From Eledone cirrhosa (taxonomy: Eukaryota), in the NCBI GenBank assembly GCA_964016885.1, contig OZ024750.1:25172001-25236000 (forward strand): DNA of 64,000 bases. Reading direction: 5' to 3'. The position numbers and the translations under genes were made by a program. The notes under the pieces were generated by a model, which was given only the letters and a program-made list of their open reading frames with translations, was not told the origin of the DNA and did no database searches. Below, piece by piece: positions 4,011 through 51,335 of the stretch (position 1 is its first letter; every line of letters begins with the position of its first letter).

Positions 4011-4059
4011 CTGTGGTACATATACACACATATACATATATTTTATATATATATATATA

Positions 4060-4401
4060 TATTACTTCAAAATATTAATAAATATAGACATTCATGCGAT
4101 CAAATATATTTTATTATACATATTTCAGAGGTACTGAGCTATTTCATCAGTACATCCTCATCAGATAAAATAAATTGATGTCTGACATACCTCAACTGTG
4201 CTAATAGTTCAATTCCAGTCTTGAAATAGCTCAGTACCTCTGAAATATGTATAAGAAAATATATTTGATCACATGAATGTCTATATTTATTAATATTTTG
4301 AAGTAATATTAATAACTCCAGAAAACCTCTTTGTTGAGTGCTTCTAATCTATTGTAAAACTTTATTCATTGATTAATCAATGAACCTTGTTAAACTTTTG
4401 G

Positions 4402-4402
<1 letters not shown>
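4060..4402. mobile_element. Penelope-like pLTR/retrozyme-like element with internal inverted duplication
   Basis: ~4060-4146 is inverted at ~4222-4308; hammerhead on minus; flanked by (TA)n; related to 5073-5265 and 10780-10978. Confidence 0.7.
4107..4172 (-). ncRNA. Type I hammerhead ribozyme motif
   Basis: Minus strand: UAUUUUAU-CUGAUGA-GGAuGUACUGA(loop)UCAGUACcUCU-GAAA-UAUGUA-UA|AUAAAAUA; 8-bp stem I, intact core, AUA triplet. Confidence 0.75.
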
Positions 4403-4472
<70 letters not shown>

Positions 4473-4502
4473 TATTAATAAAATAGATGTTCTTTTGATC
4501 AA

Positions 4503-4504
<2 letters not shown>

Positions 4505-4534
<30 letters not shown>

Positions 4535-5070
4535 TGTTTAACGTCCATATTCCACGCTTGCATGGGTTTGGACGGGAGTTTTCCCACTTGAGGCAAGAGT
4601 GGTTGTCTTGCTCGTATAGGACTGTCTGGCGGGTTTTCTACAGCTGGATGCCCTTCCTAACACCAACCACATTTACAGTGTGGAACTGGGAGGTTTTTAC
4701 CGTGTTACCTACACGGCCACATTACAGCGTGGACTGTGTGTTTTTTTGTTCTGACACCTACACGATCTCATTTGTTTCGGGCTGGATGTTGTGGTACCAA
4801 CATAACTTTACATTGAAAGGGGTGGTGTGGATGGGGTGGGGGTAGTGGGACGAGGGTGTATTTTGTTAGAGGTGCCTACTGACTGTAGTAGGTTTCACTT
4901 TGTACTTAGGTAAGACGGGTCTTCTCTATTACTGTGTAGCGCCAAAGATCTCAATCCAGTGACATTGTCTTGGAGAGGTGTAAGTGTGTGAGGTCGGAAT
5001 TTATCAAGTCATCCCAGGTTTTTCTGGGTCTGCCTACTCCGTGGCTTCCGTCTATTTTTATTGCCCTGCA
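4505..5070 (-). mobile_element. RTE LINE subfamily A, 5'-truncated 3' end with long 3' UTR
   Basis: CRAIKIDGSHGVGRPRKTWDDLINSDL matches the 11.5-kb ORF2 end; same 3' UTR; (CAT)n tail. Splits a hammerhead-element fragment (4470-4504 / 5073 onward). Confidence 0.9.
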
Positions 5071-5072
5071 TA

Positions 5073-5265
5073 TACATTTTATTATACATATTTCGGATGT
5101 ACATCCAAAATATGTATAATAAAATGTAATTGATGGAAAGAACATCTATTTTATTAATACTTATATTAATAACTCCTGAAAATTATTTACAGTTGAGTGC
5201 TTCCAATCTACTGTAAAACTCATTCTTTGAGATAATCATCGAATATTGTTTAACAACTTAATACT
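5073..5265. mobile_element. Hammerhead-element remnant with 28-bp fold-back palindrome
   Basis: 5073-5100 and 5101-5128 are inverted (1 mismatch), centred on ggatgt|acatcc (stem II); downstream part is homologous to 4300-4400. Confidence 0.65.
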
Positions 5266-5913
5266 TATATATATATATATATATATATATATAAGAGAGA
5301 GAGAGAGAATCACATGCACAAAATATTGAAAAGTTTCATAAGATATTGAAACGCAGAAGAATTAGTGTGAACTAGCATATTGAACATACTTAACCAATAA
5401 GCAAGTATTAATAAACCCTAATAAATCTAATTTTGTGCTTCTGCATACGTGTGCTTTCATATTGGGTTTATTATTAGTTAAGTTCAATAAGTGTGACTAC
5501 AGGCAAGATAACAGATGCTGGTTTTTATTGGTTATTATCAGGTCATGATGTAAAACAGTCTCGTAAATAGAAAAACCATTGATATGAATAGATTCGACAT
5601 TTCTTTTGGTAATTTCAAAGAAAATATAAAAATAAATATCTATTGGAATTGGAGAAATTCCCAGAATATATCAAGGTATTGATTTTGTTTCTGTAACTCC
5701 TTCATCTTACCTCCTCCTCTCACAGACAGCTCAAAAGCAATTCGATTTTACTACATTTACACACTCTCTCACACACACACTCTCTCTCACACACACACTC
5801 TCTCTCACACACACTCTCTCTCACACACACTCTCTCTCACACACACTCTCTCACACACTCACACTCACACACTCACTCACTCACACACACACACTCACAC
5901 TCTCACACTCTCA

Positions 5914-10779: not shown

Positions 10780-10978
10780 AAAGTGTTAAACAATATTCAA
10801 TGAGTATGTCAAAGAATGAGTTTTACAGTAGATTGACTACCTTGATTAAATCTTAACCATTTAACATCTCAGGGTATGTCATGTATCATATTTTGTCTGA
10901 TGAGGACGTACTGTTGTACTTCCGAAATATGTATAATAAAATGTAATTGATCAAAAGAACATCTATTTTATTAATATT
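10780..10978 (+). mobile_element. Penelope-like/retrozyme-like element fragment (inverted 3' segment + hammerhead)
   Basis: 10780-10835 is the reverse complement of the downstream segment seen at ~5205-5260; followed by a full hammerhead; flanked by microsatellites. Confidence 0.7.
10888..10944 (+). ncRNA. Type I hammerhead ribozyme motif
   Basis: AUAUUUUGU-CUGAUGA-GGAcGUAC(UGUU)GUACuUCC-GAAA-UAUGUA-UA|AUAAAAUGU; 9-bp stem I with G-U pairs, intact core. Confidence 0.8.
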
Positions 10979-11019: not shown

Positions 11020-12753
11020 TCATCATCATCATCAGGTTTAGCGTCCGTGTTCCACGCTTGCATGGGTTTGGACGGGGGTTTTCCCACTTGAGGCAAGAGT
11101 GGTTGTCTTGCTCGCATAGGACTGTCTGGCGGGTTTTCTACAGTTGGATGCCCTTCCTAACACCAACCACATTTACAGTGTGGGGCTGGGAGGTTTTTAC
11201 CGTGTTGCCTACACGGCCACATTACAGCGTGGACTGTCTGGCGGGTTTTCTACAGCTGGATGCCCTTCCTAACACCAACCACATTTACAGTGTGGGGCTG
11301 GGAGGTTTTTACCGTGTTGCCTACAAGGCCACATTTACAGCGTGGACTGTGTGTTTTTTGTCGTGACACCTACACGATCTCATTTGTTTCGGCCTGGATG
11401 TTGTGGGACCAACATAACTTTACATTGAAAGGGGCGGTGTGGGTGGAGGTGGTGGGACGGGGGTGTGTTTTGATAGAGATGCCTACTGACTGTAGTAGGT
11501 TTTTACTTTGTATTTAGGTAAGGCGGGTCTTCTCTATTACTGAGTACCGCCAAAGGTCTCGGTCCAGTGACATTGTCTTGGAGAGGTGTAAGCGTGTGAG
11601 GTCGGAATTTATCAGCTCGTCCCATGTTTTTCTGGGTCTGCCTACTCCGTGGCTACCGTCTATCTTTATTGCCCTGCACTTTGTTATACAGCTGTCGTCT
11701 TTCATGCGCATCACGTGACCGTACCAACGTAGCCTTCTCTCGAGTAAACAACATCTGATCCCTCTTATTTCTAATTTTTTCCTTAGTTCGTTTATGCTTT
11801 GCCGTTCACGTATATTACTATTGCACATCCAGCGGAGCATGCAAGCTTCGTTCCTCTCTAGTCTGCGTATATCCTCTGCACACAATGCCCAGGTCTCACT
11901 GCCATGCAGCATTGCTGTTCGTATGCAGGCATCGTATAACCTGCCTTTCATTTTTAGGGAGAACCCTCTAGCGGCTAATAGTGGTATAAGCTCTCTGAAC
12001 TTTTTCCATCCAGTTCTGACTCTAGCTACTGTACTTTCAGAGCACCCTCCCCCACTGCTGATTTTGTCACCCAGATAACGGAAGCTGTCCACTATTTCTA
12101 TAGAACCCTCTGCGCAGTTGAAGGAGCTAGTATTTTGTGGGCACTTGCTGCTACTTATTGCACCAGAGCACCGGCCACATGTAAAATCTATGTTCTTAGT
12201 TAGCTTACCTGTGATCCCACTACATCTTTTATGCACCCATACTTTGCATTTGGGACATAAAATGGAGTTTCTACCTACGCCTTTCCTACACACTGAGCAT
12301 GGCCATTTCCCAGATGGGACCGCCGCCTTATTTTCTTTCCTACAAACTAGAACTTTAGTCTTAGCCAGGTTAATTTTAAGGCCTTTTGATTCTAGGCTGT
12401 GCTTCCATGTTTGGAATTTCTTCTCTAGTTCGGTCATTGATTCAGCTATGAGCGTTAGATCATCTGCGTATAGGAGTTCCCATGGGCAGCCGGTCTTGAA
12501 CTCCTCTGTTATAGCCTGAAGGGCAATAATAAATAGTAGGGGGCTAAGAACAGAGCCCTGATGGACACCAACTTTTACGCTAAACTCTTCACTATATTCG
12601 TTGTTAATTCTAACCTTACTGACTGTTTCTTTATACATGGCTTGTATAGCTCTCACAAGCCATTCGTCAACACCTAGTTTTCTAAGAGACCACCAGATAA
12701 TGGAACGGGGGACTCTGTCGAAGGCTTTCTCCAAGTCGACGAAAGCTAAGTAT

Positions 12754-43346: not shown

Positions 43347-43677
43347 GGAGGCACATGGCTTAGTGGTTAGAGCATTGGCCTTGCAATCGAAAGGTTGTGA
43401 GTTCAATTCTCAGACTGGGTGATGTGTTGTTTCCTTGAGCAAGACACCTTATTTCACATTGCTCCAGTTTACTCAGCTGTAGAAATGAGGTGATAGGGAC
43501 CGGGGTCTATATCATTCCACTGCAAAGCGGTCGTGGAGGTGCCACGGCAAAAAAGCACCCAGCACTCACTGTAAATGAGGTTGGTGTTAGGAAGGGCATC
43601 CAGCTGTAGAAATCAAGCCAGAATCAGTTCCCGTCCCACCCTTGCAAGCAGGGAAAAAGCGGACGTATGATGATGAT
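43347..43677 (+). mobile_element. SINE family A, full length
   Basis: A/B boxes, tccttgagcaagacac, module, RTE-B-type tail; preceded by (TA)n. Confidence 0.9.
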
Positions 43678-45069: not shown

Positions 45070-45925
<856 letters not shown>

Positions 45926-50992: not shown

Positions 50993-51335
50993 GGAGGCAC
51001 ATGGCTTAGTGGTTAGAGCATTGGCCTTGCAATCGAAAGGTTGTGAGTTCAATTCTCAGACTGGGTGATGTGTTGTTTCCTTGAGCAAGACACTTTATTT
51101 CACATTGCTCCAGTTTACTCAGCTGTAGAAATGAGATGATAGGGACTGGGGTTCCTATCATTCCACTGCAAAGTGGTCGTGGAGGTGCCACGGCAAAAAA
51201 GTGCCCAGCATTCACTGTAAATGAGGTTGGTGTTAGGAAGGGCATCCAGCTGTAGAAATCAAGCCAGAATCAGTTCCCGTCCCACCCTTGCAAGCAGGGA
51301 AAAGTGGACGTAAAATGAAATGATGATGAAATGAT
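50993..51335 (+). mobile_element. SINE family A, full length
   Basis: Representative copy; 3' end matches the RTE subfamily B 3' end. Confidence 0.9.

What the first reader, a model, noticed from the sequence alone, without database searches (positions are those of the whole stretch)
4107..4172. Second, diverged hammerhead copy on the minus strand with structure-preserving changes
Same core and same UAUGUA-UA junction as the 10.9-kb copy, but with different flanks and a longer stem II. Differences keep pairing: stem I A-U versus G-U, and stem II first pair G-U versus G-C. The fourth stem II position is mismatched in both. Two subfamilies sharing fold and core suggest selection on the RNA structure. 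A second CUGAUGA sits at the top of stem II.
Basis: partly seen in the sequence, partly recalled or inferred. Interest (0 to 1): 0.75.

Follow-up and report, generated by a model that had tools for sequence, protein, structure and literature searches.

The report
Hammerhead in Hydra-type Penelope retrotransposon stub
This is a real hammerhead (self-cutting RNA) motif at the end of a truncated copy of a known kind of jumping gene, one of about 100,000 related motifs in this animal genome; it likely cuts only as a pair, and this copy is predicted to be zipped shut by its own mirror image, so it is ordinary.

Summary
In detail: 4107-4172 (minus) is a type I hammerhead whose helix III is only a palindrome, with the cut at 4115/4114. 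It is the terminal repeat (pLTR) of a Hydra-clade Penelope-like retrotransposon. A full broken unit elsewhere in the genome reads hammerhead, tail, RT, GIY-YIG, hammerhead (period 3,790 bp) and carries the Hydra motifs. Here only two 5'-truncated arms landed head to head in (TA)n, one with a 93-nt tail, a published layout. A core-only pattern finds 106,199 genome matches (control 164). Across lineages stem II and helix III show double-sided compensation, so the fold was under selection in active elements. Among inserted copies the core decays as fast as the rest (2.0% vs 2.2%), so this copy is not itself selected. The second CUGAUGA is incidental. Read-through RNA here folds into a long fold-back hairpin that buries the cut site. 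No arm of 79 starts at the cut site, so the copied RNA was uncut or re-joined. Cleavage was not tested. The scan noted Hydra elements, two-armed insertions and twin tail hairpins before on other DNA of this genome. Verdict: new member of a known kind.

The parts
4107..4172 (-). Type I hammerhead motif with palindromic (dimer-type) helix III; predicted cut between 4115 and 4114
4059..4223 (-). Minus arm: 5'-truncated pLTR of the Hydra-type element, ending at end site 1 (+56 from the cut), no tail
   Evidence: 97% to natural copy L061; 96-98% to the 40 best genome matches
4222..4402 (+). Plus arm: pLTR truncated in loop II (3' half of the hammerhead only, no CUGAUGA) plus tail; 2-nt overlap with the minus arm at the head-to-head joint
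   Evidence: (I3)
4310..4402 (+). 93-nt tail = sequence that follows the pLTR and leads to the ORF start in full units; ends at end site 2
   Evidence: L196 tail 1678-1770 then ORF
4315..4339 (+). Small bulged hairpin (ACTC...GAGT) a few bases after end site 1; a twin (GCTC...GAGC) follows end site 2 in full units
   Evidence: lead from earlier scan notes
4144..4150 (-). Second CUGAUGA, paired inside stem II; incidental
4044..4061 (.). (TA)n target, left
4403..4470 (.). (TA)n target, right
10889..10944 (+).

Best explanation
The motif is the hammerhead of the terminal repeat of a Hydra-clade Penelope-like retrotransposon, left here in a two-armed, 5'-truncated insertion in a TA repeat; in the active parent element it likely cut RNA only as a dimer, and this copy is likely inert. 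Shown: motif, link to an RT + GIY-YIG unit, insertion layout, covariation across lineages, neutral decay across copies. Inferred: the element's enzyme cut (TA)n, primed reverse transcription from both DNA ends at two fixed internal sites of its RNA (+56 and about +149 from the cut), stopped early on both sides, and the two cDNAs were joined head to head through a 2-nt microhomology. Inferred: two hammerheads pair through the self-complementary AUAUGUAU and exchange stem I strands to cut, probably slowly or with the element's protein, to process element transcripts; the RNA that was copied was still continuous across the cut site.
For: L196: hammerhead 1515-1677, tail 1678-1770, ORF, 1.16-kb 3' UTR, hammerhead 5305-5467; 7 of the 8 long stretches fetched for RT matches have this hammerhead after the same 3' UTR in whole or part. 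Hydra motifs in natural copies: RWR, DKT-type, CxCX5C, CxxC before E, CxH after N as defined in PMC8557442 section 11. Genome counts 39,241 (control 0) and 106,199 (control 164). Covariation: 96.6% cells paired, 33 double-sided cells, 0/500 shuffles as high, slid controls 37-56%. Helix III palindrome changes UAUGUA/UAUAUA/UGCGCA and stays self-complementary in 89-100% per position. 14 of 16 two-armed insertions have exactly one tail (p=0.0013). Fold-back of the locus -158 kcal/mol buries GAAA, cut site and stem I 3'. Dimer cleavage, low activity and protein help are reported for other PLE hammerheads (PMC4209133; PMC11167929).
Against: No cleavage or expression data. The 16 sequences were hand-picked and found through patterns that fix the core (and for many, stem I), so core invariance there is circular. 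The lineage-level test free of that bias is only suggestive: 0 of 22 core positions vs 13 of 115 others carry shared variants, p=0.09. Four more distant elements found by protein alone showed no full core by script (0 of 4); by eye 2 of 2 inspected keep a CUGAAGA box near the end with a damaged second box. The first stem II pair is G.U (A-U or even A.C in other lineages), not the G-C called highly conserved in PMC4209133. Clade call rests on motifs, not on a tree with reference proteins; Pfam gave no passing match. The dimer fold is not the computed minimum (-24.4 vs -27.7 kcal/mol).
Confidence: 0.9

Rival explanations
1. The hammerhead cuts and is re-joined, giving a circular unit-length RNA that is the true template; this would explain more-than-unit copies and arms that run through the cut site.
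For: 76 of 79 arms run through the cut site and none starts within -10..+8 of it; L196 holds one unit plus about 330 extra nt; model proposed in PMC4209133 discussion.
Against: An uncut transcript explains the same data; in vitro, hammerhead mutants did not affect insertion and unprocessed RNA was the main substrate for Poseidon_Ac (PMC11167929). No RNA data here.
Confidence: 0.2
2. This particular copy is an active, host-selected ribozyme.
For: Its 11 core positions are intact, as in 47 of 58 close copies.
Against: Intact core is the default at 2% divergence; it has 4 differences from the majority in 163 nt; no second sense copy nearby within its insertion; mirror arm sequesters the cut site.
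Confidence: 0.03
3. It belongs to a non-autonomous tandem retrozyme.
For: Type I dimer-type hammerhead, no ORF at this locus; such elements exist in this genome per earlier notes.
Against: The same pLTR is joined to 3' UTR, RT and endonuclease in long copies; locus is not a tandem array.
Confidence: 0.03
4. The fold is kept for a non-catalytic role (protein binding or RT positioning) and cleavage is marginal.
For: No genomic trace of cut templates; weak first pair of stem II; a pyrimidine mismatch at stem II position 4 is kept in 97% of unfiltered hits, which catalysis does not obviously need (inference).
Against: All catalytic positions, the free N7 position varying (U/A/G/C) and the palindromic helix III fit selection for dimer cleavage.
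Confidence: 0.12

Closest known systems
Hydra clade of C-terminal EN+ Penelope-like elements (Craig et al. 2021, PMC8557442; passages, section 11 and supplement rows read), incl. Hydra-1_Obim
   Same: RT then GIY-YIG, RWK-like and DKT motifs, CxCX5C linker, CxxC/CxH, (TA)n targets, type I hammerhead near the 3' end with palindromic helix III
   Different: Different family: Hydra-1_Obim has another hammerhead sequence with 4-bp helix III and 1-nt loop; unit here is 3,790 bp (clade generally under 3 kb) with a 1.2-kb 3' UTR; tail 93 nt rather than 30-40
Minimal/dimer-type PLE hammerheads (Cervera and de la Pena 2014, PMC4209133; parts 1-2 of 4 read; Lunse et al. only through the review PMC6765202 passages)
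   Same: Type I, long helix II, palindromic helix III, many diverged families with compensatory changes, mostly single motifs in truncated copies, pairs on opposite strands
   Different: No extra base between 9 and 10.1; first stem II pair G.U/A-U rather than G-C; fixed pyrimidine mismatch at stem II position 4; copy number about 10 times the largest quoted there (9,000)
Poseidon_Ac tail and internal RT initiation (Frangieh et al. 2024, PMC11167929; parts 1-2 of 4 read); inverted pLTR with tail (PMC3846280, passages)
   Same: Two end sites downstream of the hammerhead bounding the tail; AT-rich target; template continuous over the cut site
   Different: Other clade; ORF starts about 200 nt after the cut here, not inside the hammerhead
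Metazoan non-LTR retrozymes (preprint 10.64898/2026.07.22.740005, part 1 of 5 read)
   Same: Type I dimer-type hammerhead
   Different: Not a tandem non-coding unit; tied to a coding element

Membership tests
Type I hammerhead, dimer type | Core CUGANGA, GAAA, UH in order with stems I and II | tested here: met
Type I hammerhead, dimer type | Helices supported by compensatory change | tested here: met
   stem II 7 of 8 pairs, helix III 1 of 4, stem I 0 of 8 double-sided; unfiltered pairing 84-97%
Type I hammerhead, dimer type | Short palindromic helix III | tested here: met
Type I hammerhead, dimer type | G10.1-C11.1 pair (highly conserved, not absolute) | tested here: not met
   G.U in this subfamily (54 G, 57 U of 58); purine-pyrimidine order kept; published Hydra hammerheads also depart here
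Type I hammerhead, dimer type | Self-cleavage at the predicted bond | not testable with these tools
   no assay; no RNA run available
Hydra-clade PLE | RWK motif and DKT motif in N-terminal region | tested here: met
   RWR in L197, DKT in L196, L198, L203; homologue P0001 has RWK and DKT
Hydra-clade PLE | CxCX5C linker, C-terminal GIY-YIG, CxxC and CxH around E and N, no CCHH | tested here: met
   absence of CCHH read by eye from the alignment
Hydra-clade PLE | Insertion into (TA)n; canonical hammerhead | tested here: met
Hydra-clade PLE | Generally shorter than 3 kb | tested here: not met
   period 3,790 bp in L196; a tendency in the paper, not a defining rule
Hydra-clade PLE | RT phylogeny groups with reference Hydra proteins | not tested
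   reference proteins not available to the tools
EN+ PLE insertion layout | Direct pLTRs around the ORF; inverted 5'-truncated copy; one-sided tail | tested here: met
Neptune/Nematis PLE | CX2-5CxxC linker and CCHH motif | tested here: not met
Non-LTR retrozyme | Tandem short non-coding units each with a hammerhead | tested here: not met

The most novel reading that the evidence does not exclude
These Hydra elements cut their RNA as hammerhead dimers, re-join it into a 3.8-kb circle, and a dimeric RT copies it from two hairpin-marked start sites into both ends of a TA break; the many lineages share stem I and a self-complementary helix III closely enough to cut each other's RNA in trans, and the fixed pyrimidine mismatch in stem II is a protein or tertiary contact that switches the ribozyme on.
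Probability: 0.15. Interest if true: 0.6.

Novelty: new member of a known kind. Interest (0 to 1): 0.2.

Why it matters
On its own this copy is genomic debris. The family is useful as material: about 100,000 motif copies in many lineages give natural compensatory evidence for the intermolecular helix III, and the insertion ends record how Penelope-type enzymes copy RNA (two fixed starts, one tail per pair, template continuous over the cut site). What PLE hammerheads do in vivo is still open, and this family offers ready constructs for that test.

Tried and rejected
Rfam: no hammerhead match at gathering or E<=10. Neptune assignment: my first reading, dropped after motif comparison. Second CUGAUGA as a second core: no stem II can form behind it, it is paired in stem II, and it is not kept in sister subfamilies; a CUGAGGA variant in about a quarter of close copies changes only the free position, which I read as a loop-edge change. 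Spike of 5' ends at the cut site: none in this subfamily (0 of 79; peaks at -78 and -188 are alignment breaks against a diverged sister subfamily); in the larger family D 1 of 30 distinct arms, and genome-wide 158 matches in a 4-base window at the cut against 18 and 50 in two control windows with stricter filters; by hand, with the base make-up, these scale to about 260, 90 and 340, and 9 of 31 inspected rows were small internal deletions or duplications, so no spike. RNA editing scar in this copy: only one A>G difference from the majority. Expression: no RNA holder listed; contigs laid cannot show ends. Pfam on ORF fragments: nothing above cut-off. Protein atlas gave no answer. Lunse et al. 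could not be read; its supplement may list cephalopod hammerheads of this type. Literature searches for a description of this family; none found, PMC13282606 has no mention of hammerheads; the supplement of PMC8557442 was cut when stored.

Full report
Observation. A structural descriptor finds this motif, the 10.9-kb one and one poor hit in the window, against 0.02 per shuffle. Rfam does not detect it. The stated differences from the 10.9-kb copy are real but one-sided (A-U to G.U, G-C to G.U). U at 4154 is a minority state: 52 of 58 close copies have C, consistent with CpG decay (inference).

Context. The motif lies in an inverted repeat (arms 4054-4146 and 4222-4314, 96%). Against a natural longer copy, the minus arm is 4223-4059 and the plus arm 4222-4402, overlapping by 2 nt, both ending outward in (TA)n. 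The plus arm starts in loop II, so it holds only the 3' half of the hammerhead, and runs 93 nt further than the minus arm.

The parent element. The 40 best genome matches are 96-98% identical. Two of 30 such loci shared over 1.5 kb upstream including an endonuclease-like frame; searching with the adjoining RT DNA gave 4,082 candidates. L196 is a whole, broken unit: hammerhead 1515-1677, tail 1678-1770, ORF with RT and GIY-YIG to about 4170, 1.16-kb 3' UTR, hammerhead 5305-5467. So the hammerhead is in the pLTR and the 93-nt extension is the tail. Natural copies show RWR, DKT, CxCX5C, YIG, CxxC..E and CxH, the marks of the Hydra clade (PMC8557442 section 11). The paper's supplement lists Hydra-1_Obim of an octopus with a different hammerhead. 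One database homologue, P0001 (36% identity over 425 aa), has the same motifs. That the host is an octopod is my guess from genome size, repeats and scan notes, not a test.

Abundance. A strict pattern gives 39,241 matches (reversed control 0); with stem I left free, 106,199 (control 164); many insertions have two arms, and a few listed rows are chance. This subfamily has 408 exact flank-anchored copies. In 400 kb of arbitrarily chosen DNA my descriptor found 8 motifs of 3 or more families.

Selection, at two levels. Across 16 hand-picked lineage representatives 96.6% of cells pair, 8 of 20 pairs change on both sides, and no shuffle of 500 reaches the covariation score (RNAalifold recovers stems I and II unaided). 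These were found with patterns fixing the core, so core invariance there is circular. With a pattern that fixes only the core, stems I and II pair in 84-97% per position, position 4 of stem II is unpaired in 97% (nearly always CxC or CxU), and helix III stays self-complementary as UAUGUA, UAUAUA or UGCGCA (36 and 31 hits; in the random set 18 hits include chance ones and pair less). Among inserted copies chosen by outer flanks only (63 copies from the first 67 of 408 rows, three near-majority rows not fetched; 58 used, 5 with indels dropped), rare changes hit the core at 2.0% and the rest at 2.2% (p=1); flanks 2.6-3.9%. Shared variants avoid the core in this family and in family D (24 of 30 arms used): 0 of 22 vs 13 of 115 positions, p=0.09. 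Four distant elements found by protein only gave no full core by script. Reading: selection on the fold in active source elements, neutral decay afterwards.

How it works. Helix III has no room for a loop; two molecules can pair through AUAUGUAU and swap stem I strands. The active monomer is 5.4 kcal/mol above its minimum, the symmetric dimer 3.3 above its own: modest support. Dimer cleavage with low rates and protein help is reported for other PLE hammerheads. Of 79 arms anchored downstream of the cut (70 loci from the first 100 of 758 rows), 47 end at site 1 and 32 carry the tail; 14 of 16 two-armed insertions have exactly one tail (p=0.0013), matching two RT start sites as shown for Poseidon_Ac. 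76 of 79 arms run through the cut site and none starts there; family D shows no spike either. So the copied RNA was uncut or re-joined; these data cannot tell which. A small bulged hairpin follows each end site (window 4315-4339; twin in L196 and L198), a lead taken from earlier scan notes and checked in 2 full units only.

This copy. RNA read through 4410 to 4054 folds into a long fold-back hairpin between the arms (-158 kcal/mol) that buries GAAA, the cut site and the 3' strand of stem I. Only a transcript starting in the 75-nt spacer would free it, and it would still need a partner. No RNA data were available.

Novelty. Hammerheads in PLE pLTRs, dimer-type helix III, opposite-strand pairs, inverted truncated copies, one-sided tails, (TA)n targeting and Hydra elements in octopus are all in print (PMC4209133, PMC8557442, PMC11167929, PMC3846280). 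I found no description of this family's hammerhead, but Lunse et al. could not be read. New member of a known kind; interest 0.2.

Noticed in passing
window 4466-5271: A two-armed insertion of the 10.9-kb subfamily folds back at stem II (about 5098-5103, no 5' core); its minus arm is split at one element position into 4466-4504 and 5073-5103 by a 568-bp 3' fragment of another retroelement (matches 11036-11678; RTE-like, label recalled).
   Followed up: partly
window 4110-4115 (minus): AAUAAA spans the cut site; other abundant lineages read AAUGAA, so it is not universal.
   Followed up: partly
one search list; L371, L375, L390, L392: A 3-nt loss at the cut site in 19 of 100 listed family-D rows, once in both arms of one insertion; slippage in ATAATA is the simple reading, an imprecise re-joining scar is not excluded.
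   Followed up: no
L308, L312, L324, L325: A lineage with A.C at the first stem II position (4 of 31 hits).
   Followed up: no
L119:4668 and 4842; L002:2386; L061:939; L039:2183: Other hammerhead families with different stem I and helix III (TATATA with a GC-rich stem I; CTAG; CCATGG) in fetched loci.
   Followed up: no
L048 about 1330-1560: Tandem repeats of the 5' half of the 10.9-kb subfamily hammerhead in front of a whole copy.
   Followed up: no
window 43354-43417, 45214-45271, 51000-51063: Three near-identical tRNA-like matches just at the Rfam cut-off, probably SINE heads.
   Followed up: no
L061, L062, L196: Hydra-type elements of different families (30-50% protein identity) cluster next to each other at shared (TA)n tracts.
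   Followed up: partly
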